This document shows, piece by piece, positions 4,730 through 63,978 of a stretch of 64,000 nucleotides of DNA (positions are counted from its first letter, which is position 1; each line of letters starts with the position of its first letter). The notes beneath the pieces are model-generated. The model searched no databases. It had not been told where the DNA came from and was given only the letters and a program-made list of their open reading frames with translations. The position numbers and the translations under genes were made by a program. Source of the stretch: Acidimicrobiia bacterium (GTDB lineage Bacteria > Actinomycetota > Acidimicrobiia > Spongiisociales > ZC4RG35); the NCBI GenBank assembly GCA_046756405.1, contig JBHHWH010000001.1, positions 3,133-67,132 of the forward strand, in the 5' to 3' direction.

Positions 4730-5688
4730 TGGCGCTCCGCACACCCGCCGTGGACTCCACCGAAGCTGTAGGCGCCGCCCTGAGGGGCCGCCGCACGCGC
4801 ATCGGCGAAGTCGGCTTCCAACTACTGCTTCTCAGCACACTTCTGGCAGCGCTGCTGATCCTCGTGGTGTTGATCGTCGATGTGGTAGTCGGTGCCATAC
4901 CGGTGTTCGCCGAACGGGGACTCGGGTTCATCACTAATCCCCTGTCCCTGGATCCCACCTCCGCCGGCGTCTACACCGCCGTCCTCGGCTCCCTCGGACT
5001 CAGTGCCGTCGTAATTCTGGTGTCCTTCCCCGTCGGCATCGGCGCCGCCATCTACCTGGCGGAATATGCTCCCGACAACCGGCTCACCCGGTTCATCGAC
5101 ACCAATATCCGCAATCTGGCAGGAGTCCCCTCCATCGTCTACGGCCTCTTGGGCCTGGCCATCTTCGTTCCCTTGGTGGCTGCCGTCGGCCTGGGGGGAC
5201 CTCCGGGGGTGGAGGGCAGGAACCTGTTCGCCGGAGGGCTGGCCCTGGCCACGCTGGTGCTCCCCATCGTGATCATCACCAGCGTGGAGGCCCTCCGGGC
5301 CGTTCCTTCAGACCTTCGCATGGCCGCCTACGGCGTCGGTGCCACCCAGTGGGAGGTGATCCGACACCATGTGCTCCCAGTCGCTGCCCCGGGGATCCTC
5401 ACCGGGACGGTGCTCACCCTGGCCCGAGCCTTCGGTGAGACCGCCCCGCTGCTGATGGTCGGGGTAACTACCGGGTACTTTCAGGCGGGTACCGGTGTGG
5501 GTCTCTTGGACAGGCTCACCGGGAAGTACACCGCACTGCCCGTCACCGTGCTCTCTTGGTCACGCCAGCCGGGGGGAGGTTTTCAGGACCATCTGGCCCC
5601 GGCCGCCATCGTCGTCCTGCTTGTCGTGTTGCTGGGAGCCAACGCAACGGCGATCATCCTGCGCAATCGCTACGAGAGGAAAGGGTGA
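4729..5688 (+). CDS. pstA: Phosphate ABC transporter permease PstA.
   Basis: Second permease of the pst operon. The start overlaps the pstC stop by 1 nt (TGATG). Confidence 0.88.
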
Positions 5689-6554
5689 GCTTGAACACGA
5701 GGACTAACCCGCCGATTCGGCCGGACGCGCCGCCCGAAGAGGATCAAGCGGCTCACCACACAGAGGGCAACGAGGGCCGCGAGGTCGTCTTCGACATCGA
5801 GAACCTCACCGTCTACTACGGCGACTTCCGCGCGGTCGCCGAGGTGAGCCTCCCGGTCTACGCCCGGGAGATCACAGCCCTCATCGGGCCCTCGGGATGC
5901 GGCAAGAGCACGGTCCTTCGCTCCCTCAACCGGATGAACGACCTGATCGAAGTCGCCCGGGTCGAGGGTCGGGTTCTCTACCACGGGGTAAATCTCTACG
6001 ACCCCAAGGTTGACGCGGTAGAGGTCCGCCGGCACATCGGCATGGTCTTCCAGAAGCCCAACCCGTTCCCCAAGTCGATCTATGAAAACGTTGCTTTCGG
6101 GCCCAAGATCGCAGGCCACAAAGGCAACCTCGACGACGTCGTAGAAGACTCGCTGCGCAAGGCAGCCCTGTGGGAAGAGGTGAAAGACCAACTCGACGGC
6201 CATGCCTACGCTCTCTCGGGAGGCCAGCAGCAGCGACTCTGCATCGCCAGGGCGATAGCCACCAGCCCCGACGTTCTGCTCATGGACGAGCCAGCCTCCG
6301 CCCTAGACCCCATAGCTACCCTTCGCATCGAAGAACTGATGCTCGAGCTGAGGCGTCACTACTCCATCGTGATCGTGACCCACAACATGCAACAGGCCGC
6401 CCGGGTAAGCGACCGCACCGCATTCCTCAACGTCGACGTGGGAGAGGACGGCCAGCGCACCGGCCGCCTAGTGGAGTATTCCGAGACTGACCGCCTGTTC
6501 ACGAACCCCTCCGAGAAGGCCACCGAGGACTACATCACGGGGCGGTTCGGATGA
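5685..6554 (+). CDS. pstB: Phosphate ABC transporter ATP-binding protein PstB.
   Basis: Walker [13 protein letters not shown] signature LSGGQQQRL, and Walker B LLMDEP. GTG start overlaps the pstA stop (GTGA). Confidence 0.9.
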
Positions 6555-7240
6555 GCGAAGTTCGCAGCCAGTTCCATGCTGCCATGGAGGAGCTGGAGAC
6601 CAGGCTCGTAGAGATGGCAGAACTTGCCACCCACCAGATCAAGGAGGCCGTGGCCTCCCTGATATCCGGAGACGTGGACCGCGCCGAAGCGGTGGTGGCC
6701 TCCGACGATGAGATAGACGAGATCTACCTCGAAGTAGAGAACCGCTGGCATGAGGTCATGGCCCGCCAAACGCCGGTGGCGTCGGATCTCCGTCGGATGA
6801 CCCTGATCCTCTCCGCCAACCACAGTCTGGAACGCATTGGCGACCAGTCGGTCAACATCGCCCAGGTGGTCAAGGCCACCGCCGGGCTCCCCCGCCGAGA
6901 GACCATCCTGTTACACATCCGGGAGATGGCAGCCATGGTGACCGACATGCTGGCTGTGGCGATGGAGGCTCTGGCCAGACGGGAGCTGTCCCTGGCCCTT
7001 CGCCTCCCTGAGATGGACGACCCGGTGGACTTGCTCAACCGCAACATGTATCGGGAAGTAGCCGACTGTGGTGAAGATCACGATCTACTGGAGTGGGCCC
7101 TGCGGATGCTGCTCGTAGCCCGGGCCCTGGAACGTGTCGGCGACAGGGCTGTGGACATTGGCGAACAGGTAGCGTTCCTGCTGACCGGCGTCTTCCGGGA
7201 GTTCTCCAACGACAGTTCCATCAATCTCGATGCCGGCTGA
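6551..7240 (+). CDS. phoU: Phosphate signalling complex protein PhoU.
   Basis: Two PhoU repeats (E..R.GD motifs: [10 protein letters not shown] and [10 protein letters not shown]). ATG overlaps the pstB stop. Confidence 0.9.
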
Positions 7241-7922
7241 GGTCCGCGTTCTGGTCGTCGAAGACGAAGAGTCCCTCGCCGAGTCGATCGCTTACAACCT
7301 TCGCCGCGAGGGATTCACCCCGCAGATCGTCACCGACGGCAGTCAGGTGCTCGGTGCCGTGCGGGTTGACCCTCCCAGCCTGATCCTGCTGGACCTGATG
7401 CTGCCAGGGATGAACGGGCTCGACGTGCTGCGCGCCCTCCGCGCCGAGAAGTCAGCCGTCCCGGTGATAATCGTCACCGCCAAGGACACCGAAGCCGACG
7501 TGGTGGCCGGCCTGGAATTAGGCGCCGACGACTACGTCACCAAACCCTTTTCCATGAGAGAACTCCTCTCCCGGATCCGGGCCCTCCTCCGTCGCACCAG
7601 ACCGCCCGAGAGAAGGCGGATGGTGCTGAGGGGCGGACCCGTGGTGATGGATCTCGACCGCCACGAGGTGACGGTCCATGGAGATCCGGTGAAGCTCCGC
7701 CCCAAGGAGTTCGAGCTTCTCGAGGCGCTGCTGACCCGCAAGGGAGACTTGGTACCGCGGGATGTGCTATTGGAGGAGGTATGGGGATACACCTTCTTTG
7801 AGGACACCAAGACCCTCGATGTCCATGTGAAACGGCTCCGATCGAAGATCGAAGAGGACCCGGCGAACCCGATCCACATCGTCACCGTGAGGGGTTTCGG
7901 CTACAAGTTCGTCGATGACTGA
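7230..7922 (+). CDS. OmpR-family response regulator (PhoP/PhoB/RegX3-like).
   Basis: Receiver domain (VLVVEDEESL, the phospho-Asp in LILLDLMLPGMNG, and KP in VTKPF) plus a winged-helix trans_reg_C C-terminus (GYKFV). Overlaps the phoU stop. Confidence 0.85.
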   Translation: MPAEVRVLVVEDEESLAESIAYNLRREGFTPQIVTDGSQVLGAVRVDPPSLILLDLMLPGMNGLDVLRALRAEKSAVPVIIVTAKDTEADVVAGLELGADDYVTKPFSMRELLSRIRALLRRTRPPERRRMVLRGGPVVMDLDRHEVTVHGDPVKLRPKEFELLEALLTRKGDLVPRDVLLEEVWGYTFFEDTKTLDVHVKRLRSKIEEDPANPIHIVTVRGFGYKFVDD

Positions 7923-9606
7923 CCGCGTCCGGCCGTTCCGCCGCCGTCTCGTGGCCTGGTATGCAGGCATGCTCATCCTGCTCCTGGCGAGCTTCGGCGT
8001 CATGCTCTCCCGCTCTCTGGAGCGGATGCTCCTGGACCAACTCACAGAGTCCCTGGTAGGCGAGGCCAAAGCGGTGAGCCTGGCCCTACCCAGAGAAGAC
8101 TCCGCCCTTCAGGCGTCTGTCATCAACCTGGGCGAGAACCTCAGCATCAGGATCACGGTCATCGCGCCCGACGGGACCGTGCTCGCCGACTCCGACGCCG
8201 ACCCTTCGACCATGGAGAATCACGCCGGCCGCCCTGAGGTCGCTGGGGCTATCTCCGGGGACATCGGCGTAGCTTCCCGTACCAGCGCCACGGTCGGTGA
8301 GGCGCTCCGATACGTGGCGCTTCCGGTTTCCCAGGGCCGGATAGTGAGGGTGGCGGTGGCGGAGACGGACGTTGAAGCCCGGATGGCCTCGCTGCGAAGC
8401 ATATTGGTGGTTGGGGGCGTGATTACCGGCCTGGTCGGATTGGTGGGAATCGACCTGGTGGGTCGTGCGGTGACCCGACCCCTGGAACAGCTCACAAGCG
8501 CGGTGAGTGAGGTTGCGGAGGGTGTCGAAGCGACGACGGCCATCGCCTCGTCGGGAGTAGCGGAGTTGGATCGCTTGGGGGAAGCAGTGAAGCGTCTCGC
8601 CTCGGAGGTGGCCCGCCGGGTAGACCAGCTCAGCCGGGAGCGAGAACTGCGGGATGTGGTCCTTTCGGCCCTAGACGTGGGCGTCGTGCTGGTGGAAGAA
8701 GCAACAGTCGTCTACACCAACCCGGCGGCCCGGGAGATTCTCGGCACCGAACCTGCAAACGTCTCCCAACTTCATCCGGCACTCCTCCAGGAGTTGATTC
8801 GGCTCGCCTCGTCGCAGGACACCGGGGGAAGCGGAGAGTTTGAGACCCCGACCGGTGTCGTCGTGGCCTCGGCTCTGCCGCTCTCCGAGACGGACCAGAT
8901 CCTCCTCACCCTCACCGACGTGACCGAGGCCCGCAGGGCTGACGCCGTTCGCCGCGACTTCGTCTCCGCCGCCTCCCACGAGCTCAAGACCCCTGCGGCG
9001 GCGATCCAGGCCGGAGCTGAGACGGTGATACGGGCCTTGGAGGACGACCCCGAGGCCGCCGACTACTTCGCCCGCAGGATCGAGGCGGACGCCCTGCGGC
9101 TCTCCCGGATCGTGGCGGACCTACTCGACCTGTCCCGATTGGAAACCCAGCACCTCATAAGGGAGCCGGTGGCGCTGGACGGGGTGATCCGGGATGAGGC
9201 GGAGAGGCTGGGCTCGGTACCCGTGGATTTGGCCGTCGACGCCGAGGAGCACCTGGTCGTTGAAGGGAATGCGTCGGACCTGGGCCTTGCCGTGCGCAAC
9301 CTCTTGGACAACGCCGTCCGCTACACCCAAGCGGGAGGCCATGTCCAGGTGAGACTGACCTCCAGTAACGGCGAGGCGATCGTCGAAGTCATCGACAACG
9401 GGGCCGGGATTCCCGCTGCCGACCTGCCTCGCATCTTCGAGCGCTTCTACCGGGTGGACGAGGCCCGCTCCCGCCGCACCGGAGGGACCGGGCTGGGACT
9501 GGCCATCGTCAAGCACGTGGCTGAGCAGCACGGCGGCCGGGTGGAGGCGGAGAGCGTCCTCGGCCAAGGGTCTACGTTCCGCATCATCCTGCCCATTGCG
9601 GAATAA
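7915..9606 (+). CDS. Sensor histidine kinase (PhoR/SenX3-like), partner of the preceding regulator.
   Basis: N-terminal TM helices, the HisKA H-box ASHELKTPAAAI, and HATPase_c N/G boxes (DNAVRYT, DNGAGIP, GGTGLGLAIV). Start overlaps the regulator stop. Confidence 0.85.
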   Translation: MTDRVRPFRRRLVAWYAGMLILLLASFGVMLSRSLERMLLDQLTESLVGEAKAVSLALPREDSALQASVINLGENLSIRITVIAPDGTVLADSDADPSTMENHAGRPEVAGAISGDIGVASRTSATVGEALRYVALPVSQGRIVRVAVAETDVEARMASLRSILVVGGVITGLVGLVGIDLVGRAVTRPLEQLTSAVSEVAEGVEATTAIASSGVAELDRLGEAVKRLASEVARRVDQLSRERELRDVVLSALDVGVVLVEEATVVYTNPAAREILGTEPANVSQLHPALLQELIRLASSQDTGGSGEFETPTGVVVASALPLSETDQILLTLTDVTEARRADAVRRDFVSAASHELKTPAAAIQAGAETVIRALEDDPEAADYFARRIEADALRLSRIVADLLDLSRLETQHLIREPVALDGVIRDEAERLGSVPVDLAVDAEEHLVVEGNASDLGLAVRNLLDNAVRYTQAGGHVQVRLTSSNGEAIVEVIDNGAGIPAADLPRIFERFYRVDEARSRRTGGTGLGLAIVKHVAEQHGGRVEAESVLGQGSTFRIILPIAE

Positions 9607-28184: not shown

Positions 28185-28222
28185 GAGGCCTTTTCCCCTA
28201 CGCGCGTAGGGTAAAAGGCCTC
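28185..28222. promoter_or_regulatory. 38-bp imperfect palindrome in a divergent promoter region (candidate operator).
   Basis: GAGGCCTTTTCCCCTACGCG|CGTAGGGTAAAAGGCCTC, with one mismatch in 19 bp per arm, centred on GCGC. It lies between the divergently transcribed SnoaL-like gene and the membrane-protein gene. Confidence 0.35.
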
Positions 28223-32318: not shown

Positions 32319-32467
32319 GACACAAACCTAATGGGTGCGGGTTCTCATCAACACCCACCCCAAGCGCCAGCCAGCGGTAGACTTAGCGAGGAATTATGGG
32401 GGAGTCACGAGGGTTCCCCCTAAGTCAGCGGGGAGGCGCTTAGGAGACTTCGTTCACCACCCGTCGT

Positions 32468-32519
32468 GGGGCCCGGGCCCGGTTCCTCGCCCCTCCCCCA
32501 CCCCCCCGGCTCGGGCCCC
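32468..32519 (-). terminator. GC-rich hairpin immediately 3' of tRNA-Leu (candidate tRNA terminator or processing structure).
   Basis: GGGGCCCGGGCC ... GGCTCGGGCCCC (11 of 12 bp) with a C-rich loop. It starts 17 nt downstream of the tRNA CCA end on the minus strand. Confidence 0.3.
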
Positions 32520-32535
32520 ACGACTTCTTCGCGTC

Positions 32536-32626
32536 TGGTGCCCGGGGTGGGTCTCGAACCCACACGGGCCGGTGAGGGCCCAAGGGGGTTTAAGCCCCTC
32601 GCGTCTACCGATTCCGCCACCCGGGC
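32536..32626 (-). tRNA. tRNA-Leu (anticodon UAA), class II with a long variable arm and an encoded CCA.
   Basis: The reverse complement reads GCCCGGGTGGCGGAATCGGTAGACGCGAGGGGCTTAAACCCCCTTGGGCCCTCACCGGCCCGTGTGGGTTCGAGACCCACCCCGGGCACCA. It has a 7-bp acceptor stem, a D-arm identical in pattern to bacterial tRNA-Leu (UGGCGGAAU.GGUAGACGCG), an anticodon loop CUUAAAC, and a T-arm GGTTCGAGACC. Confidence 0.8.
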
Positions 32627-56109: not shown

Positions 56110-56501
56110 ACCCCCATCCCCTTGGCCTTTTCGGTCTGCCAGAAGATGTCGGCGATCTCGTCGATCAGAGCGATCAGCTTCTCCCCTTCGGCGGGGTCCA
56201 TCGACTTCTTGGCATCACCGGCCTGGTGGATGGCCCGCCAGAAGAGATCATCAAGCTGGGGGAACTGCTCCCGATGCTCAGCGGTGAAAAAGTCGGCCCA
56301 CAGCACCATCAGATGGTGTTTGACCTCCTCCGCACGCTGCTCTTTGATGAAGACGGCCCGGTCCCTGAAGACCGGATCGTCAGAGGCCTGGTATTTCTGG
56401 GCGACCTTGAGGACCGACATGGCCTCGATTTTCGCCTGGGCCGGGTCGTAGACCCCGCAGTAGAGGTCACAGTGGGCATGGGCAATCGTGACTTGGCGCA
56501 T
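56094..56501 (-). CDS. sodN: Nickel-containing superoxide dismutase precursor (NiSOD).
   Basis: Ni-hook motif HCDLYCGVYDP immediately after a 9-aa propeptide MRQVTIAHA, and a 4-helix-bundle length (135 aa). AGGAG SD 5 nt upstream of the ATG. Confidence 0.85.
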   Translation of the reverse strand: MRQVTIAHAHCDLYCGVYDPAQAKIEAMSVLKVAQKYQASDDPVFRDRAVFIKEQRAEEVKHHLMVLWADFFTAEHREQFPQLDDLFWRAIHQAGDAKKSMDPAEGEKLIALIDEIADIFWQTEKAKGMGVYPPS

Positions 56502-56553
56502 CTCTTCTCCTTCCCTTATGGCCGACGGCGGAGACCATACTCCGCCTCCGACC

Positions 56554-57498
56554 ATGACGATGAGACGCTTCCGGGTGGCCGAGCAATCGATGCTGCCCAC
56601 CCTCCGCCCCGGCGAGGAGATAGTCGCCACCGACTCCAGGCCGGCCCGCCCCGGCGACCTGGTGGTGTTTTCCCATCCTGACCGAAACCACTTCTGGATG
56701 GTGAAGCGGATGGTCTCCCCACGAGAGCCGCTGGAGCAGGGACTGGCCTGGGTGGTCTCGGATAATCCGGAGGTCACCCGGGCCGACTCCCGCACCTTGG
56801 GACCGGTACCGCTGGCATCGCTGATGCCGGTGGTCACCCGTCTCGATGAGGGAACCTTCGTCGAGGCCTGCCGGCTCCTGGAAGCCGAAGACCAGGCCCT
56901 GGCGAAGGCCCTGGAGGTGTATGGGATCCCTGAGTTCTGGCGGCGTCGGGAAGGGCTTCCAACCCTGGTGTGGCTGATCCTTGAACAGCAGGTCTCCCTG
57001 GCCTCGGGTCTGGCTACTTACCGGCGTCTCGGGGAGGCCCTCGGAGAGATGACCGCCGAAGCCCTCGCCGGCCTCGACGTGGACGGCCTCCGTGCCCTCG
57101 GTATCACCCGCCAGAAGGCCGCCTACCTGGTGGAACTGGCTGGAGGCGTGATTCGCGGAGAGGTAGATCCGGACTCATGGGGAAAGCTCTCCTATCCCGA
57201 AGCCCGGGAGCGTCTACTGGCCCTGCGCGGTGTCGGTCCCTGGACCGCCGACACCTACCTCCTCTCGGTGGCTGGCCATCCGGACGTCTTTCCCACCGGG
57301 GACCGGGCGCTCCAGGTGGGGACAGCCGAGGTTATGGGTCTGAGTTCGGTACCCGACGTTGAGGAGCTGGAGATCCTGTCCCAACCCTGGCGGCCGGTGC
57401 GGGCGGTCGCAGCGCGGATCATTTGGCATGCCTACCTGGCAGCACGGGGGAAGGCCGAACCCGCCGACCCTGTGCACGGGCCTTCGAAAACGGCGTAG
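56554..57498 (+). CDS. Fusion protein: SodX-type S26 signal-peptidase-like domain (NiSOD maturation protease) plus an AlkA/Mag-like HhH-GPD domain. Start is uncertain within 56518-56560.
   Basis: The N-terminal roughly 100 aa carry the S26 Ser/Lys dyad pattern (SMLPTLRPGE...VKRMV...SDNP...DSRTLGPVP). Residues about 120-336 match the AlkA C-terminal HhH-GPD fold (LRGVGPWTADTYLL...DVFPTGDRAL, ARIIWHAY). Divergent from sodN with only about 50 bp between the start codons. Confidence 0.7.
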   Translation: MTMRRFRVAEQSMLPTLRPGEEIVATDSRPARPGDLVVFSHPDRNHFWMVKRMVSPREPLEQGLAWVVSDNPEVTRADSRTLGPVPLASLMPVVTRLDEGTFVEACRLLEAEDQALAKALEVYGIPEFWRRREGLPTLVWLILEQQVSLASGLATYRRLGEALGEMTAEALAGLDVDGLRALGITRQKAAYLVELAGGVIRGEVDPDSWGKLSYPEARERLLALRGVGPWTADTYLLSVAGHPDVFPTGDRALQVGTAEVMGLSSVPDVEELEILSQPWRPVRAVAARIIWHAYLAARGKAEPADPVHGPSKTA

Positions 57499-57511: not shown

Positions 57512-57925
57512 ATGACCGAGTTCATCGTCACGATGGAGAACCGCCCCGGGCGTCTGGCCAGCTTGGCTGAAGCCCTGGCGGCCTTCGGGGTCAACATCGA
57601 AGCGCTGGCGGCCTACGCCAACGACGGCACCGGAACGGTGCGCCTCATCGTGAGCGACGCCCCCACCACCCGTCACGTCCTCGACGACGCCGGCCTCCAC
57701 TTCGAGGAGAACACGGTCCTCACCGCCCACCTCCCCCACCGGCCCGGCGAGCTGGCCCGACTAACCCGCTCCCTGGCCGACGCCGGGGTGAATATTGAGG
57801 CCCTGTACATCCTCAAATCGAATCACGACGGAGTGGAGCTGGCCATCTCCCTGGACCAGCCTCCTTCGGCGGTCCCCGAGCTCGAAGTGACGGGGGGAGT
57901 GCTCTCCCTGCCCAACTCCGGGTAG
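57512..57925 (+). CDS. ACT-domain-containing protein (tandem ACT repeats).
   Basis: 137 aa with two segments of the form ...ENRPGRLASLAEALAAFGVNIEAL... and ...LPHRPGELARLTRSLADAGVNIEAL.... Confidence 0.6.
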   Translation: MTEFIVTMENRPGRLASLAEALAAFGVNIEALAAYANDGTGTVRLIVSDAPTTRHVLDDAGLHFEENTVLTAHLPHRPGELARLTRSLADAGVNIEALYILKSNHDGVELAISLDQPPSAVPELEVTGGVLSLPNSG

Positions 57926-57952
57926 CCGGGGTCCGTTCGTAAACTGCCGTCG

Positions 57953-59047
57953 ATGCGCATCGCCATTGCCAGCGTGGTTGCGCTCGGGCTCCTCGTGTCG
58001 GCGTGTTCCCCAGCAGCGACGGAGACCTCCGTAGCAGCCACCGGGACCCAGGCGCCGACCACCACTACCACCAGCACCACTGTCCCGCCGACCACCACCT
58101 CAGCGCCGGCCACCTCCACGACCACCACTCTCCCGCCGGGCGACGTCTCCCCTATCAACGGCCTCGAGGTGGAAGACGAGGCGCTGATGAATCGTCGGGT
58201 GCTGGCGGTGAAGATCGACAACCACCCCAGGGCCAACCCCCAGTCGGGCATCGACCAGGCGGACATGGTCATCGAGCTGATGGTGGAGGGGATCACCCGC
58301 TTCATCTCAGTGTGGCTCCAAAGTGATGCCGAGTATCTGGGTCCGATCCGCTCGGCGCGTCCCACCGATCCGACCCTGCTCCGGGCCTTCAACGAGCCGA
58401 CCTTCGCCATTTCGGGTGCCCAACAGTGGGTCCAGATCTTGGTCCGAAGCAAAGATGTTCGCCTCATAGGCGAGGTCAGGCCAGCCATGTTCCGGATCTC
58501 GTCGCGGAAGGCGCCGCACAACCTCTACGGGGACACCAACCTGATCCGCGAATACGCCGACCAACTCGGCTACCCAGACGAACCGCCGACGGAACCGATC
58601 TGGAGCTTCGGGCCGGTGCCCGAGGACGCAGCCGTGGCCACCTCGGTGCGGATCGACTTCCTGGGCCAGATCGTCCGCTGGACCTGGGACGAGGAAAGCG
58701 GCCTCTACCTGAGGACCGCCTACAACCGCGAGTCGACGTACCGCAATGAGGATGGCACCGAGGGGCGTGTCGGAGTGCCGGTGCTGGTAGCCCTCTACGT
58801 GGAGCAGTACACCGCCTACCCGCCCGCGGGCCAGAGCGGAACCCCCCTTCCCGCCTCCCGAACCCTCGGCTCGGGCAAGGCCTTCGTCTTCGCCAATGGC
58901 AAGGTCGTCGAAGGGACCTGGACGCGGGGGTCGGAGGACGAGTGGTTCCGCCTCACCTACCCCAACGGCGAAGAACTGTCCGTCCCGCCGGGGAAGGTGT
59001 GGGTCTCCCTGGTCCCTGTCACGCGAGGCCTCACCTACTCCGACTAA
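57953..59047 (+). CDS. DUF3048-domain lipoprotein.
   Basis: Lipobox LLVSAC, a Thr/Pro-rich linker, then DUF3048 N/C-domain hallmarks (RVLAVKIDNHP...ADMVIELMVEGGITRF...). Confidence 0.7.
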   Translation: MRIAIASVVALGLLVSACSPAATETSVAATGTQAPTTTTTSTTVPPTTTSAPATSTTTTLPPGDVSPINGLEVEDEALMNRRVLAVKIDNHPRANPQSGIDQADMVIELMVEGITRFISVWLQSDAEYLGPIRSARPTDPTLLRAFNEPTFAISGAQQWVQILVRSKDVRLIGEVRPAMFRISSRKAPHNLYGDTNLIREYADQLGYPDEPPTEPIWSFGPVPEDAAVATSVRIDFLGQIVRWTWDEESGLYLRTAYNRESTYRNEDGTEGRVGVPVLVALYVEQYTAYPPAGQSGTPLPASRTLGSGKAFVFANGKVVEGTWTRGSEDEWFRLTYPNGEELSVPPGKVWVSLVPVTRGLTYSD

Positions 59048-59049
59048 CT

Positions 59050-59098
59050 TTTCTGTGCGGGTTTACGGCTGGTTTTGGCCTGAAGATCCGCACAGAAA
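59050..59098. repeat. Inverted repeat / hairpin IR-A (TTTCTGTGCGG-27 nt-CCGCACAGAAA) in the leader of SBP gene A.
   Basis: 11-bp perfect stem with a 27-nt loop. It starts 3 nt after the DUF3048 stop and ends 17 nt before the SBP-A ATG. It is nearly identical to IR-B. Confidence 0.6.
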
Positions 59099-59115
59099 GG
59101 TCTTGAGAGGGCGAG

Positions 59116-60852
59116 ATGCGACTGAGCGTGGCGGGGTTGGCACTGATAGTGGCGTGCACCGCGGTGCCGGCGCCGGAGACCACCATCTCCACCGAGGCGG
59201 CATCGACGACGGTGGCGCCGACGACCACCACCACGATCCGGCCGGTGCCCGACCCGGAGTTCACCATGCGGGTCTCGGTGGGTTGCATGCCTTTGTTCGA
59301 CTTGATCATCGCCGAGCTGTCGATTGTGGAGTGTCCCGAATGGGGTATGCCCCTCCAGCCCTCCCTCTACCGGCTGGTCCCTCCCACCGCCACCTTGGTC
59401 CCCCTCCTCGCCGCCGACCCGACCCCTCCCCTGGGCCAGGCCACCGACGACGGCTGGGAGATCGTGGTGACCTTGCGCCAGGGGGTCACCTGGAGCGACG
59501 GCACCGTCGTGGATGCCGAAGACGTCGTCTACACGTATCAAGTCTTGAGTGACCAAGCCCCCTGGCGTTTCTCTTACACCGTGGAGGCGATTGACGACTT
59601 CACCGTCCGCTATGTCTGGGAAGAGAGGCCTACCACAAACATCTGGCAGTTCGAGGCCGCCCTGGCCCCCATCTTCTCCGCCGACTTCTGGGGAGCCCAG
59701 CAGGAACGACCCGAAGGTGGTTTCGGCTTCACCCCCGACCTCGAGCCCACCGCGATCCCCACCACCGGCCCCTACCGTCTGGCCGAGGTAGACGACGACT
59801 TCGAAGGCTGGATCCTGGAGGCAGTCCCCGCCTGGTGGGAGGCAGGCTCGTCGTTCACCGTGTGGCGTAACGGGTCGGTCCGCTATCGCAATCCCAACCT
59901 CGGCCTCGACGAGACCTACGGAGAGCCGGAAGGCGATGTGATAGCCGAGTGGACCGTGGGTCCCTACGCCTCCCGGGTGGAGTACTCGGTGTTTGGTGGC
60001 GTAAACGCAGAGATAGATGCTTTCCGAGAAGGTGACATCGACCTGATGCTCAGGAGCGTGGACTTCCCCTCGGGCATCCCCGACCTGGGGGCAGCCGCGG
60101 GGCTGGTGAGAAGCGTTCTCGGTGTCGACGTAGTGGTCTTCGAGTTCGATGCTCCTCCCTTCGACAATGTCGCCGTCCGCCGGGCCGCCGCCTGCGCCTT
60201 CGACCCCCAAGTCCTGGTCGGGAAGGTCCTTCCCGGCAAGGTCCTTCCCCCCACCGGATGGGGTGTCGGCCTCGGACCCTGGTGGGAGGACGCGTCCCTC
60301 GACTGCGAAGGAGTGGGGACGGGGAACATCCTCGAGGGGGTTCCCGTGGCAGGAGTTCTGGTCCGGCCCCCGGAGTACTCCCCGATACCGGCTGCCGTGG
60401 CCGCGGCGGTCTACGACTGGCTGGCTGGCCTGGGTGCTGAGCCCATCGACGGTTTCATCGAAATGGGCAGCATCTTCGATGATGACAGCGTGGCCGAGTT
60501 CACCGTCTTCGGGCTCGGCATCGACCCCGTACGTTTGATCACCAACCCTCGCGTCCTCATCGACACGGACATCGGCTGGCAACCTCCTGAAGCGGTCGCC
60601 CTCCTCGACCAGATTCGCAGCGCCTACGACCTGGAGACCGAACAGGCCGCCTACCGGGAGCTCCAGCAACTCGTCGCCGACCAGATCCCAGCGGTTCCTG
60701 TGCTCCGGCAGACAATGGTGGAGGCCTTCAACACCCACACCATCCTCCCGCCCTTCGTCACACCCACCGAAGACGGCTACACCACACCCCTCATCGGCGG
60801 TCTCCGGAACTGGGAGTCATGGGTCGTCCCCGCCACCCGTCAAGCCCCCTGA
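59116..60852 (+). CDS. ABC transporter substrate-binding lipoprotein, family 5 (peptide/nickel/opine type), paralogue A.
   Basis: Lipobox LIVACTA. SBP_bac_5 hallmarks include VTWSDGTVVDAEDVVYTY, GPYRL and large bilobal size. No permease or ATPase genes are adjacent. Confidence 0.8.
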   Translation: MRLSVAGLALIVACTAVPAPETTISTEAASTTVAPTTTTTIRPVPDPEFTMRVSVGCMPLFDLIIAELSIVECPEWGMPLQPSLYRLVPPTATLVPLLAADPTPPLGQATDDGWEIVVTLRQGVTWSDGTVVDAEDVVYTYQVLSDQAPWRFSYTVEAIDDFTVRYVWEERPTTNIWQFEAALAPIFSADFWGAQQERPEGGFGFTPDLEPTAIPTTGPYRLAEVDDDFEGWILEAVPAWWEAGSSFTVWRNGSVRYRNPNLGLDETYGEPEGDVIAEWTVGPYASRVEYSVFGGVNAEIDAFREGDIDLMLRSVDFPSGIPDLGAAAGLVRSVLGVDVVVFEFDAPPFDNVAVRRAAACAFDPQVLVGKVLPGKVLPPTGWGVGLGPWWEDASLDCEGVGTGNILEGVPVAGVLVRPPEYSPIPAAVAAAVYDWLAGLGAEPIDGFIEMGSIFDDDSVAEFTVFGLGIDPVRLITNPRVLIDTDIGWQPPEAVALLDQIRSAYDLETEQAAYRELQQLVADQIPAVPVLRQTMVEAFNTHTILPPFVTPTEDGYTTPLIGGLRNWESWVVPATRQAP

Positions 60853-60857
60853 TGTAA

Positions 60858-60910
60858 CCTTTCTGTGCGGGTTTGCGGACCGTTTTGGCCTGAAGACCCG
60901 CACAGAAAGG
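60858..60910. repeat. Inverted repeat / hairpin IR-B (CCTTTCTGTGCGG-27 nt-CCGCACAGAAAGG) between SBP gene A and SBP gene B.
   Basis: 13-bp perfect stem with a 27-nt loop. The loop is 22/27 identical to that of IR-A. It is followed by an identical tcttgagagggcgagATG leader. Confidence 0.6.
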
Positions 60911-60925
60911 TCTTGAGAGGGCGAG

Positions 60926-62605
60926 ATGCGACTGAGCATGGCGGGGTTGGCACTGATAGTGGCGTGCACCGCGGTGCCGGCTCCCGAGACCACCACAACC
61001 ACCAAGGCGGCATCGACGACGGTGCCGCCCACCACCACGACGGTGGCGGTCACGACAGCGGTTTGGGCGGCGGATCCGGACTTCACCCTCCGGGTGGGTG
61101 TAGAGGCCGGAGAGGCCGACGCCTACGGCGTCCCCCAACAGCCCTCCCTCTACCGGCTGGTGCCCCCCACCGCCACCCTGATCCCTCTCCTCGCCGTCGA
61201 GGCCGAACCTCCCCTGGGTCACGCCACAGACGACGGCTGGGAGATCATCGTCCCCCTCCGTCCCTGGGTCACCTGGGACGACGGCACTCCCGTGATTGCC
61301 GGAGACGTCGTCGCCTCCTTTCAGCGAGGAGCCTACGCCCGTGGGCTGGACCTTCTCCGCGCCGTGGAAGCCGTGGACAACCACACCGTGCGCCTCCTCT
61401 GGGAGGAGCGGCCCACCATCGAGGAGTGGCAGCTAGGAGTGGCCCTGGCCCCCATCGTTCCCGCCGGCTACACACCGGAGGCGACCGACCTCCCCACCAC
61501 CGGCCCCTACCGCCTCGCCGAAGTCGACAGCGACGGCTGGGCTCTGGAAGCAGTGTCCGGGTGGTGGGAGGCGGGCTCCACAATCACCGTGTGGGAGAAC
61601 GCCGCCGTCGCCTACCGTAACCCCACCCTCGACCTCAAAGAGACCTACGGCGAGCCCGCGGGAGAGGTGGTAGCCGAATGGACCCTGGGCCCCTACGCCT
61701 CCCGGGTCGAGTACCGGGTGTTCGAGGACTTCAACGAGATCAGTGTCGCCGTAGTGAACGGCGACCTCGACCTCGTCCTCAGCAAGCAGACAATCTCTCG
61801 GGGTCTACAACTGAGCTTCCTCGAACTAGACGACTGGGCCTTCACCGGAGGTCCGAGCAGCACCCTCTACTGGGTCGCCTTCAATACGCTGAAGAGACCC
61901 TTCAACGATCTGGCCGCCAGACGGGCCGCAACCTGCAGCTTCGACCCCCAATTCCTGGGGGAGACGGTGCTGGCAGGCGCGGGTATCCCTGCGGGTTGGG
62001 GAACCGGTCTCGGCCCCTGGCAGACGACCGCTGAACCGGTATGCGGCGCACAACGAAACCCGGGCATCCTCGAGGACCACAAGGTGAAGACGATCTCGCT
62101 GGGACCCGGATACAACCCCCTCGCAGCAACTTCCGGACTCTGGGTTGGAAAGTGGCTCAGCGATCTCGGCGCCGATGTGCTTCCTTACCCAGGATCGGAC
62201 AGCTCCCCATGGCGGATGGCCGAACAGCTCGCCGATCCCGAGGCCTGGAATGTCGCCATCATAAGCACCGAGATCGACCCGATACGGCTAGTCATCGACC
62301 CCGAGGAAGTGTCACGGGTCACCGGCTGGCATCCACCCGGTGCCCGCCTCCTCGCCGAACTCACCCACAACGCCTACACCCTCGCCACTGCCCAGGAGGC
62401 CACGAGGAGGCTCCAGCAGCTCTGGGCAGAGGATGTGCCTTCGGTCCCCCTGTTCCAGTGGAGATTCATCGAGCTCTTCAACGTCTCCACGATCGCCCCG
62501 CCCTTCCTGAGCCGGGACGGCGACGGCTACACCACCCCCCTCCTCGACGGTCTGCAGGCCTGGGAGTCCTGGGTGATCCCCGCCACCCGTCCCGCAGGCG
62601 GCTGA
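60926..62605 (+). CDS. ABC transporter substrate-binding lipoprotein, family 5, paralogue B.
   Basis: The first roughly 45 codons (signal peptide plus Thr-rich linker) are nearly identical at the DNA level to paralogue A, then diverge. VTWDDGTPVIAGDVV and GPYRLAEVD motifs are present. Confidence 0.8.
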   Translation: MRLSMAGLALIVACTAVPAPETTTTTKAASTTVPPTTTTVAVTTAVWAADPDFTLRVGVEAGEADAYGVPQQPSLYRLVPPTATLIPLLAVEAEPPLGHATDDGWEIIVPLRPWVTWDDGTPVIAGDVVASFQRGAYARGLDLLRAVEAVDNHTVRLLWEERPTIEEWQLGVALAPIVPAGYTPEATDLPTTGPYRLAEVDSDGWALEAVSGWWEAGSTITVWENAAVAYRNPTLDLKETYGEPAGEVVAEWTLGPYASRVEYRVFEDFNEISVAVVNGDLDLVLSKQTISRGLQLSFLELDDWAFTGGPSSTLYWVAFNTLKRPFNDLAARRAATCSFDPQFLGETVLAGAGIPAGWGTGLGPWQTTAEPVCGAQRNPGILEDHKVKTISLGPGYNPLAATSGLWVGKWLSDLGADVLPYPGSDSSPWRMAEQLADPEAWNVAIISTEIDPIRLVIDPEEVSRVTGWHPPGARLLAELTHNAYTLATAQEATRRLQQLWAEDVPSVPLFQWRFIELFNVSTIAPPFLSRDGDGYTTPLLDGLQAWESWVIPATRPAGG

Positions 62606-62612
62606 TCCGACT

Positions 62613-62659
62613 TTCTGTGAGTGTTTTTGCGCGCCTACACGCGGAAAGCGCTCACAGAA
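62613..62659. repeat. Inverted repeat / hairpin IR-C (TTCTGTGAGTG-23 nt-CGCTCACAGAA) between SBP-B and the amidase gene.
   Basis: Stem of 9-11 bp sharing the TTCTGTG/CACAGAA core with IR-A and IR-B, but with an unrelated loop. It begins 8 nt after the SBP-B stop. Confidence 0.5.
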
Positions 62660-62682
62660 CAAAACCGGGTAGCGTCCTGGCC

Positions 62683-63978
62683 GTGTTTGGCGTCACAGCA
62701 ACCGATCGCGTGAGAGAAGCCCTGGAACGGGCCCATGCCACCCAGGAGACCCTCAACGCCTTCACCCACATCGACGACGAAGGCGCCCTGGGCCGGGCCG
62801 CCGAGATTGACCAACGGATCAACGAGGGCTCCTACGCCGGGCCTCTGGCCGGGATCCCAATCGCCCTCAAAGACCTGCTCGACCAAGAAGGCCAGGTCAC
62901 GACCTGCGGCTCCGCCTTCTACCGCCGCCATGCCGACAAGGACGCCGCCTGTGTCGAGGCCATCGAGGAGGCGGGCGGGATCATCATCGGACGAACCGGC
63001 CTCCACGAGTTCGCCTTCGGCTTCTCCTCGGAGAACCCCCACTGGGGCCCGGTGCGCAACCCGTGGGACCCCAACACCTCCTCGGGTGGTTCCTCGGGAG
63101 GGTCGGCGGTGGCGGTGGCCGCCGGGATCACTCCAATAGCCATTGGCACCGACACCGGCGGCTCGGTCCGCGTCCCCGCCGCCCTCTGCGGCACCTTCGG
63201 GCTCAAGGTCACCTACGGGCGGATCCCCCTCGACGGCGTCTTCCCTCTGGTGCCCTCGATCGACACCGTGGGTCCTCTGGCCGACTCGATAGAACATCTC
63301 GACCTCCCCTACAGGGCGATGTCAGGCGACGATACCCCTGAGCCGGAGCCCCGTTCCCTCAGGCTCGGGGTCCCCCAGCCCTGGTACGACGAGGCTCCCT
63401 TGGCCGAAGACGTATCCGCTGCCTTCGGCGCGGTCATCGCTGCCCTCCGAGAGATGGGCCACCAGGTCCACACCATCGAGATGACCGAGGCCGTCCCCTC
63501 GCAGAGGATCTGGAACGCCATCGCCGAAGAGGTCCGGGAGGTACACCGGCCCTTCCGTGAACGGGGTGAGCGGTACGGGGACGACGTCGCCCACCGTCTC
63601 GACGACGCCGAGCAGGTCACCCCCGAGGAAGCGGCCGAGGCCCGGACCTGGCGGCAGCGTCTGCGCGACCAGTTTGCCGACGCCTTCGCCACCGTGGACT
63701 TCCTCATCACCCCCACGGTTCCGGTGCGCCGCAAGGTGATCGGAGAGGAGCGCCTACTGGGCCGCCACTACCGGGCCGTACTCTCCTACTTCACCGCCCT
63801 GGTCAACCACTCCCTCCACCCCGCCATCGCCCTGCCCCTCACCGGGAGCGGGGCGCCACCGGCTTCCCTTCAAGTGATCGGGCCCCGCCACTCCGAGGCG
63901 GCTCTGCTCGGGTTCGCACGAGGGTTGGAGGCCGACGGAATCTCCCGGTTCACAACGCCCCCTGGGGAATACCCGTAG
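62683..63978 (+). CDS. Amidase-signature family enzyme (GatA-like amidase).
   Basis: Ser-cisSer-Lys triad region GGSSGGSAVAVAAG...GTDTGGSVRVPAALCG and lysine in IPIALKD. GTG start proposed at 62683. Confidence 0.8.
   Translation: MFGVTATDRVREALERAHATQETLNAFTHIDDEGALGRAAEIDQRINEGSYAGPLAGIPIALKDLLDQEGQVTTCGSAFYRRHADKDAACVEAIEEAGGIIIGRTGLHEFAFGFSSENPHWGPVRNPWDPNTSSGGSSGGSAVAVAAGITPIAIGTDTGGSVRVPAALCGTFGLKVTYGRIPLDGVFPLVPSIDTVGPLADSIEHLDLPYRAMSGDDTPEPEPRSLRLGVPQPWYDEAPLAEDVSAAFGAVIAALREMGHQVHTIEMTEAVPSQRIWNAIAEEVREVHRPFRERGERYGDDVAHRLDDAEQVTPEEAAEARTWRQRLRDQFADAFATVDFLITPTVPVRRKVIGEERLLGRHYRAVLSYFTALVNHSLHPAIALPLTGSGAPPASLQVIGPRHSEAALLGFARGLEADGISRFTTPPGEYP

What the first reader, a model, noticed from the sequence alone, without database searches (positions are those of the whole stretch)
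59041..62682. Three related long hairpins (core TTCTGTG...CACAGAA) punctuating a tandem duplication of family-5 solute-binding lipoprotein genes
IR-A (59050-59098) and IR-B (60858-60910) are near-identical: 11-13-bp perfect stems, 27-nt loops that are 22/27 identical, and an identical tcttgagagggcgagATG leader. DNA identity continues through the first roughly 45 codons of both SBP genes (signal peptide plus Thr-rich linker), while the rest of the proteins have diverged to roughly half identity. A third hairpin with the same stem core but a different loop (IR-C, 62613-62659) follows the second SBP gene. None of the hairpins has a U-tract. Conserved 5' modules on diverged paralogues suggest either gene conversion or selection on a shared regulatory or RNA-processing element. 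Candidate roles are an operator palindrome, a processing or stabilising stem-loop, or an attenuator. The two SBPs are orphans, with no permease or ATPase nearby.
Basis: seen in the sequence. Interest (0 to 1): 0.65.

Follow-up and report, generated by a model that had tools for sequence, protein, structure and literature searches.

The report
Dispersed stop-codon hairpin repeats flanking binding-protein genes
The three hairpins are real, but they are local copies of an apparently undescribed family of conserved intergenic hairpins that sit just after stop codons of many unrelated genes in Acidimicrobiia, so they are not a switch specific to the two binding-protein genes.

Summary
Three hairpins, TTCTGTG-N33-CACAGAA, fill the three gaps of a co-directional DUF3048 / SBP / SBP / amidase array, against 0.01 expected by chance. 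They have no U-tract and no Rfam match.

They are not private to this locus. Pattern scans and a covariance model found about 25 more copies in Acidimicrobiia MAGs and metagenome contigs. These lie beside unrelated genes (mdh, topA, glnA, folD, sufC, uricase, rplA), 0-15 nt from stop codons. All share:
- an invariant foot, CC(T)TTCTGTG...CACAGAA(C)GG;
- a constant length;
- a 22-25 bp stem with strong covariation.

This is a lineage-specific repeat of the REP/TRIT kind. The most likely role is a stem-loop in the transcript that forms or protects RNA ends. That role is inferred, not shown.

The near-identical 5' modules of the two SBP genes reflect two things. Gene conversion acts within a genome: paralogues are 94% identical there, against 80-87% between genomes. 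Purifying selection acts on the hairpin, ribosome-binding site and signal peptide.

The SBP-locus copies are unusual within the family. They lie in the opposite orientation, keep a conserved loop, and sit exactly 18 nt from the ATG. A locus-specific, co-opted role therefore stays open.

The parts
57953..59047 (+). DUF3048 lipoprotein gene. Its stop codon TAA (59045-59047) touches the first paired base of hairpin IR-A.
   Evidence: Pfam DUF3048 N- and C-terminal domains. Signal peptide with lipobox, MRIAIASVVALGLLVSAC.
59047..59101 (+). Hairpin IR-A. Family foot CTTTTCTGTG...CACAGAAAGG, stem of about 22 bp with G.U pairs, apical loop GGUUUU.
   Evidence: -35 kcal/mol, z -4.8; 60.7 bits to the family model.
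59102..59115 (+). Leader with the ribosome-binding site (GAGAGGGCGAG). The ATG lies 18 nt after CACAGAA, the same distance as in four related genomes.
   Evidence: alignment.
59116..60852 (+). SBP1, a family-5 solute-binding lipoprotein. It is the orthologue of the amidase-adjacent SBP of L001 and L004 (60-68% identity).
59045..59231 (+). First copy of the gene-conversion tract: hairpin, leader, signal peptide and the start of the Thr-rich linker.
   Evidence: 91% identical to 60855-61041 over 187 nt, against 70-79% for the rest of the genes. The module groups by genome.
60857..60911 (+). Hairpin IR-B. Its foot is perfectly palindromic, CCTTTCTGTGCGGG...CCCGCACAGAAAGG.
   Evidence: -40.1 kcal/mol, z -6.6; 66.9 bits.
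60855..61041 (+). Second copy of the gene-conversion tract.
60926..62605 (+). SBP2, a paralogue 49% identical to SBP1. It has no close orthologue among the relatives found (about 51% to the L002 SBP).
62613..62659 (+). Hairpin IR-C. It has the same invariant foot but a different, compensated interior (AGUG.../...CGCU). It is orthologous to the hairpins between SBP and amidase in L001 (5427-5474) and L004 (1992-2039).
   Evidence: -35.6 kcal/mol; 42.4 bits.
62683..63978 (+). Amidase gene (AtzE-like amidase-signature family). The likely GTG start is 23 nt after IR-C.
   Evidence: Pfam Amidase 3.5e-93 and NCBIfam AtzE-family hits below the curated cut-off. Start read from the sequence.

Best explanation
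**What it is.** The three hairpins belong to a dispersed, lineage-specific family of palindromic elements of about 55 nt in Acidimicrobiia. Members share an invariant stem foot, CC(T)TTCTGTG ... CACAGAA(C)GG. They also share a stem of 22-25 bp whose interior differs between copies but stays paired, a nearly constant length, and no U-tract.

**Where members sit.** They occupy short intergenic gaps 0-15 nt from stop codons of unrelated genes. In kind this resembles the REP elements of enterobacteria and the TRIT motif of mycobacteria.

**What happens at this locus.** One copy fills each of the three intercistronic gaps of a co-directional, probably co-transcribed array: DUF3048 lipoprotein, SBP1, SBP2, amidase.

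**Most likely mechanism (inferred, not shown).** The element is transcribed and folds into a very stable stem-loop. That stem-loop forms or protects RNA ends. It could act as a factor-assisted terminator or pause site, or as a barrier to exonucleases after processing. Neighbouring cistrons could then reach different steady-state levels. The invariant foot would be the contact for a protein that is still unknown.

**The IR-A/IR-B similarity.** It has a separate cause. Gene conversion between the paralogues homogenises a tract of about 190 nt (hairpin, RBS, signal peptide, start of the linker). Strong purifying selection on that module acts on top of it.
For: **Shown: the hairpins are real and non-random.** Three copies against 0.01 expected. 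Folding energies are -35 to -40 kcal/mol, z -4.5 to -6.6.

**Shown: the family is dispersed.**
- A strict pattern hit four different Acidimicrobiia/Actinomycetota MAGs at non-homologous loci.
- A looser pattern gave about 20 genuine metagenome copies.
- The covariance model R1 found three further diverged copies inside those loci. That is roughly one extra copy per 50-70 kb.

**Shown: the stem is under selection.** On 27 non-redundant copies, 85.6% of cells pair against 73.4% in shuffles. There are 92 double-sided changes against 40.5, and 0/500 shuffles reach the observed values. Sliding the 3' partners drops pairing to 30-49%. Column pair 15/48 reads CG 14, AU 10, UA 2.

**Shown: neighbouring genes are unrelated.** They include mdh, a luciferase-like oxidoreductase, topA, glnA, folD, sufC, uricase, HIU hydrolase, rplA and an M42 peptidase.

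**Shown: position and orientation.** The CACAGAACGG side lies 0-7 nt from a stop codon in nearly all non-SBP copies. The other side lies 0-14 nt from a stop in convergent pairs. In tandem contexts orientation relative to transcription is 9:0.

**Shown: orthologous retention.** The foot is kept while the interior is replaced, as in IR-C against L001/L004 and downstream of sufC in L019/L024.

**Shown: gene conversion.**

**From the literature.** TRIT is a sequence-conserved palindromic hairpin with a very narrow position near stop codons and 147 copies. [quoted passage not shown]

**From my own knowledge.** REP hairpins stabilise upstream mRNA, for example in malE-malF.
Against: - No transcript data exist, so the RNA-level role is pure inference.
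- In Mycobacterium tuberculosis, predicted TRITs and I-shaped hairpins overlap only 2-4% of mapped transcript 3' ends (bioRxiv 10.1101/2022.06.01.494293). The closest analogue therefore has no proven terminator function.
- G.U pairs outnumber A.C pairs 25:9 on the strand written CCTTTCTGTG..., regardless of gene orientation (6:2 in tandem contexts where that strand is antisense to the mRNA). This hints weakly at a DNA-strand property.
- The SBP-locus copies face the opposite way from all other tandem-context copies.
- In L001 and L004 the hairpin stands upstream of the SBP gene in a divergent intergenic region, with no upstream cistron to terminate or protect.
- Copy number per genome was never measured. 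The window holds only these three copies in 64 kb.
Confidence: 0.5

Rival explanations
1. The element works at the DNA level, as a REP/MITE-like repeat. A dedicated enzyme, such as a RAYT/IS200-type single-strand transposase, would copy or maintain the hairpins by recognising the foot. Their place after stop codons would reflect where insertions are tolerated, and they would do nothing specific for SBP expression.
For: - The foot sequence is invariant across non-homologous loci and genomes.
- The element is a dispersed singleton, with one tandem pair at L027 17-139.
- folD carries a copy downstream in two contigs, in opposite orientations and with different neighbours.
- The wobble bias of 25:9 follows the motif strand, not the mRNA strand.
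Against: - The REP-type GTAG/CTAC tetranucleotide is absent.
- No transposase lies in the window or the loci examined, although they were not searched exhaustively.
- No target-site duplications are evident.
- Copies persist at orthologous sites across dS of about 0.6, with foot and pairing preserved. That implies selection rather than decay.
- The 9:0 orientation bias relative to transcription is hard to explain at the DNA level, because GC skew shows no link to motif orientation.
Confidence: 0.22
2. At the SBP and amidase genes the hairpin has been co-opted as a gene-specific 5' element. It could be a 5'-UTR or intercistronic stem-loop that protects the downstream message from 5'-end-dependent decay, or that binds a regulator. 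In that case the first reader's regulatory reading holds for these copies even though the family is generic.
For: - The hairpin is kept exactly 18 nt before the SBP ATG in the window, L001, L002 and L004.
- Its loop (GUUUUGG) is conserved and the first 17 codons show almost no synonymous change, despite dS of about 0.6.
- It is present upstream of the SBP gene in L001/L004, where the upstream gene is divergent.
- It is absent downstream of the L002 SBP, which is followed by a convergent gene.
- Its orientation is opposite to all other tandem-context copies.
- G.U against A.C is 11:3 on the mRNA strand at these loci.
Against: - The same family lies after unrelated genes.
- The hairpin does not occlude the RBS.
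- The region after the hairpin has no significant structure (z -0.6 to -2.0) and no covariation.
- There is no Rfam family.
- Conservation of the leader and signal peptide can be explained by translation-initiation and lipoprotein-export constraints plus gene conversion.
Confidence: 0.15
3. The hairpins matter mainly as recombination substrates. Repeated, near-identical 55-nt palindromes flanking the SBP genes would promote unequal crossing-over (the tandem duplication), deletion, and exchange of SBP alleles as cassettes.
For: - The duplication unit of 1810 nt runs from hairpin to hairpin.
- L001 has lost the hairpin plus the 5' 1.5 kb of one paralogue.
- A tad gene cluster sits between the paralogues in relatives, next to the hairpins.
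- Between L001 and L004, divergence jumps at the two hairpins. The flanks are 92-97% identical and the SBP gene about 74%. SBP dS is 0.52, against 0.24 for the amidase and 0.11 for tad.
Against: - This does not explain the family's presence after single-copy housekeeping genes, the covarying stems, or the invariant foot.
- Between the window and its relatives, SBP dS equals the flank dS (0.53-0.69 against 0.54-0.73). The SBP genes are mostly just fast-evolving proteins there, with dN/dS of about 0.43.
Confidence: 0.08
4. The elements are ordinary transcription-control sites: canonical intrinsic terminators or attenuators, or an operator palindrome for a dimeric regulator.
For: They are stable hairpins in intergenic gaps, with palindromic TTCTGTG/CACAGAA half-sites.
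Against: - No U-tract follows on either strand, and the terminator scan finds nothing at the hairpins.
- The 33 nt between the 'half-sites' covary as a stem, which an operator spacer would not do.
- Most family members lie at 3' ends of genes, including between convergent genes, not in promoters.
Confidence: 0.05

Closest known systems
TRIT (Tuberculosis Rho-independent terminator motif) of Mycobacterium, found with RNIE (Gardner et al. 2011, PMC3152330)
   Same: Both are actinobacterial, and both conserve sequence as well as structure. Both are palindromic and hence potentially bidirectional, lack a U-tract, and sit in a very narrow position range around stop codons. Both are dispersed next to unrelated genes. 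TRIT has 147 copies in 4.4 Mb, about one per 30 kb. Here the rough estimate is one per 50-70 kb.
   Different: The sequence is different, and TRIT is reported as restricted to Mycobacterium. TRIT centres at about -8, overlapping the stop codon, whereas these elements start 0-15 nt after it. This family also has a strictly constant length, a variable covarying interior and a marked orientation bias. TRIT's own function is unproven: its overlap with mapped transcript 3' ends is minimal.
REP/BIME elements of Enterobacteria and Pseudomonas, with their RAYT transposases
   Same: Both are short imperfect palindromes repeated in extragenic space, often between genes of one operon, including binding-protein genes of ABC systems. 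From my own knowledge, REPs stabilise upstream mRNA and serve as join points of tandem duplications.
   Different: There is no GTAG/CTAC foot motif. Copies are mostly single rather than paired (REPIN/BIME). Copy number appears to be tens, not hundreds. No RAYT gene was seen. The family is conserved across different MAG lineages rather than being species-specific.
Intercistronic RNase III processing hairpins, for example in phage T7 early mRNA and rRNA operons
   Same: Both are stems of about 22-25 bp (two helical turns) that punctuate a polycistronic transcript. After cleavage, such hairpins leave stable 3' structures. This comparison rests on my own knowledge only.
   Different: No cleavage evidence exists here. 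RNase III sites are not defined by an invariant foot sequence and are not dispersed after stop codons genome-wide.
Inverted pairs of DNA uptake sequences (Neisseria DUS, Pasteurellaceae USS) that double as terminators
   Same: Both have a short invariant word present as an inverted pair downstream of genes.
   Different: Here the spacing is fixed and the interior is a continuous covarying stem. Competence is not known for this lineage. Abundance is far below DUS/USS levels: three copies in 64 kb.

Membership tests
REP/BIME (RAYT-associated repetitive extragenic palindromes) | Short imperfect palindrome confined to extragenic DNA | tested here: met
   All copies lie in intergenic gaps and no confident coding frame spans them. 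Hairpin folding is shown.
REP/BIME (RAYT-associated repetitive extragenic palindromes) | Many dispersed copies in one genome (typically tens to hundreds) | tested here: inconclusive
   The window holds only the three clustered copies in 64 kb. Three extra copies turned up in about 150 kb of loci that had been ascertained for one copy each. No whole genome could be scanned.
REP/BIME (RAYT-associated repetitive extragenic palindromes) | Conserved GTAG/CTAC tetranucleotide at the foot of the hairpin | tested here: not met
   The foot is CC(T)TTCTGTG / CACAGAA(C)GG in all 27 aligned copies.
REP/BIME (RAYT-associated repetitive extragenic palindromes) | A RAYT (Y1 transposase) gene in the genome, itself flanked by REPs | not testable with these tools
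   Only 64 kb of the source MAG and short loci were available. None of the neighbouring genes examined is a transposase.
TRIT (mycobacterial conserved terminator-like motif) | Sequence- and structure-conserved palindromic hairpin with a narrow position at gene termini and no U-tract | tested here: met
   compared with the description in PMC3152330.
TRIT (mycobacterial conserved terminator-like motif) | Matches the TRIT consensus or model; reported only from Mycobacterium | not tested
   No TRIT model or sequence was available here. The Rfam scan gave no hit at the hairpins. The hosts here are Acidimicrobiia. This is treated as an analogue, not a member.
Canonical intrinsic (Rho-independent) terminator | G+C-rich hairpin followed directly by a U-tract | tested here: not met
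   The hairpins are followed by GGTCTTGAGAGG or CAAAACCGGG. The terminator scan reports only two unrelated sites, against 2.1 expected.
Known cis-regulatory RNA (riboswitch, leader or attenuator in Rfam 15) | Score at or above a family's gathering threshold | tested here: not met
   Only one tRNA passes in the window. At E<=10 the hairpins draw only spurious microRNA-precursor hits, 24 bits against a gathering score of 98.
Transcription-factor operator palindrome | Conserved half-sites in promoter regions of a regulon; spacer not required to self-pair | tested here: not met
   The spacer covaries as a stem. Most copies lie at 3' ends of unrelated genes, including between convergent genes.
Integron attC sites / gene cassettes | R''/R' core sites (RYYYAAC ... 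GTTRRRY) at the stem foot; array next to an integrase | tested here: not met
   The foot sequence does not fit the core-site consensus. The array lies in a syntenic housekeeping context (metG, deoC, DUF3048) shared with relatives.

The most novel reading that the evidence does not exclude
Acidimicrobiia would possess a dedicated, sequence-specific system acting on stop-codon-proximal hairpins. An unknown protein would read the invariant foot (CCGUUCUGUG/CACAGAAAGG, with a conserved mismatch that sets orientation) at the base of a stem of fixed length, and would end or process transcripts there. That would be a second, independent actinobacterial case beside the mycobacterial TRIT, and it would suggest that factor-guided hairpin termination or processing replaces U-tract terminators in high-GC lineages. 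At the SBP/amidase locus the element would have been turned round and co-opted as a 5' module, kept uniform between paralogues by gene conversion.
Probability: 0.2. Interest if true: 0.65.

Novelty: new member of a known kind. Interest (0 to 1): 0.4.

Why it matters
How high-GC Actinobacteria end and punctuate transcripts is unsettled. Canonical U-tract terminators are rare, and the only conserved terminator-like motif known, TRIT, is confined to Mycobacterium and has no proven function.

A second hairpin family in a distant actinobacterial class shows that such elements are not a mycobacterial oddity. This family is unrelated in sequence but similar in placement. It also has clear covariation, an invariant foot, a fixed length and an orientation bias.

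The family gives a defined motif, and a covariance model, for three practical uses:
- mapping RNA ends in metatranscriptomes;
- searching for the binding factor;
- improving operon and terminator annotation in Acidimicrobiia MAGs.

For the finding as stated, the result is mostly deflationary. The hairpins are generic intergenic furniture rather than an SBP-specific switch. The locus remains a tidy example of gene conversion of a 5' module between fast-evolving paralogues.

Tried and rejected
- **Rfam.** Gathering thresholds over the whole window, and E<=10 over 58900-62800, gave nothing relevant.
- **Exact-protein look-up of SBP1.** It is not on record, because the deposited protein starts four residues later.
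- **Strict genome-collection pattern.** It was tuned too closely to the SBP-locus copies. By my reading it matches essentially none of the independent metagenome copies.
- **Chance or unrelated hits, set aside.** L009 is a set of Acinetobacter tandem repeats. L011, L015, L025, L033 and L034 have no inner pairing. The only viral hit, L035, is AT-rich and not a hairpin.
- **Strand of folding from energies.** This was rejected as evidence, because the search pattern fixed G/T on the left arm and so favours the + strand. I used only the unconstrained columns, which give 25:9 overall but are not significant within gene-context classes.
- **Replication-linked orientation.** GC skew of the loci, oriented by the motif, shows no trend.
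- **A second conserved structure pairing the RBS with codons 14-18.** RNAalifold predicts one, but the covariation term is unfavourable (+2.12). Single-sequence z-scores are only -0.6 to -2.0.
- **Promoter scan.** No sigma-70-like sites lie in 57800-62900. This is uninformative for Actinobacteria.
- **Literature.** No paper links Acidimicrobiia with REP-type repeats.


Full report
**1. The observation**

The pattern TTCTGTG-N33-CACAGAA occurs three times in the window and nowhere else, at 59051-59097, 60861-60907 and 62613-62659, all on the + strand. Shuffles give 0.01.

Each copy sits in a gap of 68-80 nt between co-directional genes:
- a DUF3048 lipoprotein gene (57953-59047);
- SBP1 (59116-60852);
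- SBP2 (60926-62605);
- an AtzE-like amidase gene (about 62683-63978).

The tract between the perfect stems is 22/27 identical, the leader is identical, and a 187-nt tract is 91% identical. The rest of the two genes is 70-79% identical in DNA and 49% in protein.

One correction is needed. The '27-nt loops' pair further through G.U pairs, so each element is a stem of about 22-24 bp with an apical loop of 5-6 nt. The energies are -35, -40.1 and -35.6 kcal/mol, z = -4.5 to -6.6.

No U-tract follows any hairpin. Rfam has no match. The only ABC transporter in the 64 kb is pstSCAB-phoU, so the SBPs are orphans as far as the window shows.

**2. Source and orthologous loci**

SBP1 is 100% identical to a protein of an Acidimicrobiia MAG. 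Only five close homologues exist among 5.8 billion proteins. Their contigs show the same neighbourhood.
- L002 carries DUF3048, hairpin and SBP, followed by convergent tad genes.
- L001 and L004 carry divergent tad genes, then hairpin, SBP, hairpin and amidase.
- L002 and L004 come from the same sample and abut with a gap of about 56 nt when mapped on L001. They are very probably one genome, with the tad cluster between the two paralogues.

The hairpin is present at every corresponding position. Three points matter for the interpretation:
- In L001 and L004 it stands upstream of the SBP gene although the preceding gene is divergent.
- It is absent after the L002 SBP, whose stop is followed at 2 nt by a convergent gene.
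- The distance from CACAGAA to the SBP ATG is 18 nt in all four genomes.

**3. The hairpin is not private to these genes**

A strict pattern scan of one genome per species hit four different Acidimicrobiia/Actinomycetota MAGs. Each hit was at a locus unrelated to the SBP genes.

A looser pattern over JGI metagenomes returned 25 contigs. About 20 of them carry genuine copies, 14-17 of which are non-redundant. The remainder lack inner pairing and match the number of chance hits expected.

The consensus is c-C-T-TTCTGTG-NNN-GTTT-[variable stem-loop]-AAAC-N'N'N'-CACAGAA-C-GG-t, almost always 47 nt from TTTCTGTG to CACAGA.

On 27 non-redundant copies the proposed 25-pair stem has these properties:

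| Measure | Observed | Control |
|---|---|---|
| Cells paired | 85.6% | 73.4% in shuffles |
| Double-sided changes | 92 | 40.5 in shuffles |
| Shuffles reaching the observed values | 0/500 | n/a |
| Pairing after sliding the 3' partners | n/a | 30-49% |

The three positions that the search pattern left free next to the foot covary cleanly; column pair 15/48 reads CG 14, AU 10, UA 2.

Part of the apparent invariance is imposed by my search patterns (CTTTCTGTG, GTYT, CACAGAAC). The covariation and the interior are not imposed.

A covariance model (R1) finds no further copy in the window with filters off. In about 150 kb of loci it finds three additional, more diverged copies: L005 6019-6079, L013 1207-1254, and L027 79-139 in tandem with 17-77. 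This suggests roughly one extra copy per 50-70 kb, or tens per genome. That figure is an extrapolation and not a count.

**4. Context of family members**

The flanking genes are unrelated. They include malate dehydrogenase, luciferase-like oxidoreductases, topoisomerase I, glutamine synthetase, FolD (twice), SufC (twice), uricase, HIU hydrolase, ribosomal protein L1 and an M42 peptidase.

Position is tight:
- The CACAGAACGG side lies 0-7 nt from the stop codon of a gene on the opposite strand in nearly every non-SBP copy.
- In convergent gene pairs the other side lies 0-14 nt from the second stop, so the element fills the whole gap.
- In co-directional pairs outside the SBP loci, the genes are always antisense to the motif as written. 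The count is 9:0, two-sided binomial p about 0.004. The mRNA there reads stop-CCGUUCUGUG...CACAGAAAGG.

The SBP-locus copies of the relatives, and IR-C, lie the other way round. IR-A and IR-B have a perfectly paired foot, CCTTTCTGTG/CACAGAAAGG.

Because the element is nearly palindromic, its orientation is set by very few positions and could flip by two substitutions. The bias therefore points to a strand-specific constraint.

The folded strand could not be settled:
- At unconstrained columns G.U outnumbers A.C 25:9 on the motif strand.
- The split is 11:3 at SBP loci, where that strand is the mRNA, and 6:2 in tandem contexts, where it is not.
- GC skew shows no link with motif orientation.

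**5. The conserved 5' module**

The aligned module comprises the hairpin, the leader and codons 1-18.

| Comparison | Identity |
|---|---|
| Module, window paralogues | 94% |
| Module, L004 against L002 | 94% |
| Module, between genomes | 80-87% |
| Mature proteins, W_SBP1 / L001 / L004 | 60-68% |
| Mature proteins, W_SBP2 and L002 SBP against everything | about 50% |

The window pair also shares a private 3-nt insertion and private leader and foot variants. The 5' module tree therefore conflicts with the gene tree. This is the signature of gene conversion, and it occurred independently in two genomes.

Purifying selection acts as well. Synonymous divergence between these genomes is about 0.55-0.7 for the flanking genes and for SBP1. 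Despite that, codons 1-18 are 89-93% identical between genomes, with hardly any synonymous change. The rare codons CGA, TTG and GCA are kept in all five genes.

I found no convincing extra RNA structure to explain this. Constraints on translation initiation and on the lipoprotein signal peptide are the ordinary explanation.

The mature SBP domains evolve fast. Their dN is 0.22-0.29, against 0.06-0.15 for neighbouring genes, giving dN/dS of about 0.43.

**6. Mechanism**

*Shown.* This is a dispersed hairpin family with selected pairing, an invariant foot, stop-codon proximity and an orientation bias. At this locus one copy sits in every intercistronic gap. The gaps leave no room for separate promoters.

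*Inferred.* The element is transcribed, and its very stable stem-loop forms or protects RNA ends. This could happen through factor-assisted termination or pausing, or through a block to exonucleases after processing. Cistron levels would then be uncoupled, as is known for REP hairpins in enterobacterial operons (my own knowledge).

The invariant foot suggests a protein partner, as the TRIT authors proposed for their motif. The stem length of two helical turns would suit a dsRNA-binding enzyme such as RNase III. That idea is speculative.

*Against.* There are no transcript data. TRIT-type predictions coincide poorly with mapped 3' ends in M. tuberculosis. The strand evidence is ambiguous. The SBP copies are inverted and can stand without an upstream cistron.

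I therefore give about 0.9 to 'member of a dispersed hairpin family' and about 0.5 to the full statement including the RNA-end mechanism.

The rivals are:
- a DNA-level REP/MITE-like repeat (0.22);
- a co-opted, locus-specific 5' element (0.15);
- recombination anchors (0.08);
- an ordinary terminator, attenuator or operator (0.05).

**7. Comparison with known systems**

The closest analogue in behaviour is TRIT (PMC3152330), followed by REP/BIME. I do not file the family under either:
- The REP foot tetranucleotide is absent, and a RAYT gene could not be looked for.
- TRIT is defined by its own sequence model and is reported only from Mycobacterium.

It is not a canonical intrinsic terminator, an Rfam family, an operator or an attC site (see the membership table).

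**8. Novelty and verdict**

I found no description of this family, either in Rfam or in the literature. In kind it is a new member of a known class, the sequence-conserved stop-proximal palindromic repeats.

For the finding as written, the result is largely deflationary: the hairpins are generic and not an SBP switch. Three positive results remain:
- a well-supported new hairpin family in Acidimicrobiia;
- clear gene conversion of a 5' module;
- an unexplained inversion and extra conservation of the SBP-locus copies.

Interest is 0.4.

Noticed in passing
L001 685-980: Between the DUF3048 gene and the tad cluster, L001 keeps only the last ~90 codons of a second SBP paralogue (…WVIPAIRPAG*). The hairpin and about 1.5 kb of the 5' part have been deleted.
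   Followed up: partly
L002 11490-13916; L001 983-3505; L004 1-60: In the relatives a three-gene tad (TadE/Tad/TadE) cluster on the opposite strand separates the two SBP paralogues, or separates DUF3048 from the SBP gene. The window genome lacks this cluster here. The L002 end and the L004 start map 56 nt apart on L001, so they are probably one genome.
   Followed up: partly
window 59116-62605, compared with L001, L002 and L004: The SBP mature domains evolve about three times faster at non-synonymous sites than neighbouring genes (dN/dS about 0.43). Between L001 and L004 the SBP dS (0.52) is double that of the adjacent amidase (0.24). This suggests allele exchange or diversifying selection on these surface lipoproteins.
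   Followed up: partly
window 59116-59170 and 60926-60980 (codons 1-18): The first 17-18 codons are almost free of synonymous change across five genes from at least three genomes, and the rare codons CGA, TTG and GCA are retained. No significant RNA structure was found to explain this.
   Followed up: partly
L027 17-139; L013 1207-1254 and 2264-2324: Two family hairpins lie back to back in L027, in a BIME-like pair. In L013 a ~1 kb gene is bracketed by two copies, so the hairpin-gene-hairpin arrangement is not unique to the SBP genes.
   Followed up: partly
L014 2004-2064 and L018 6085-6145: folD is followed by a family hairpin in two different contigs, but in opposite orientations and with different neighbouring genes.
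   Followed up: no
L009 858-1101 (Acinetobacter pittii MAG): Three tandem units of about 98 nt each contain TTTCTGTG...CACAGA. This is an unrelated tandem repeat that matched the search pattern by chance.
   Followed up: no
window 28185-28222 and 32463-32524: Two other strong palindromes of different sequence. One has two 19-nt arms, 95% complementary, with no spacer. The other is a hairpin with 20-nt arms, 14 nt from the tRNA gene at 32539-32626 (- strand).
   Followed up: no
window 56488-57498: This ORF combines an N-terminal S26/Ni-SOD maturation-protease-like domain with a C-terminal HhH-GPD DNA glycosylase domain. The L002 orthologue sits next to a Ni-superoxide dismutase gene. The fusion looks unusual, but the start codon was not checked.
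   Followed up: no
window 2805-9606: A complete phosphate-uptake cluster: pstS, pstC, pstA, pstB and phoU, followed by a response regulator and a histidine kinase. It is the only ABC transporter in the window.
   Followed up: yes
L021 13726-13786: A good family copy (61.7 bits) lies on a contig of only 49% G+C. The family may therefore extend beyond the high-GC Acidimicrobiia. The host was not identified.
   Followed up: no
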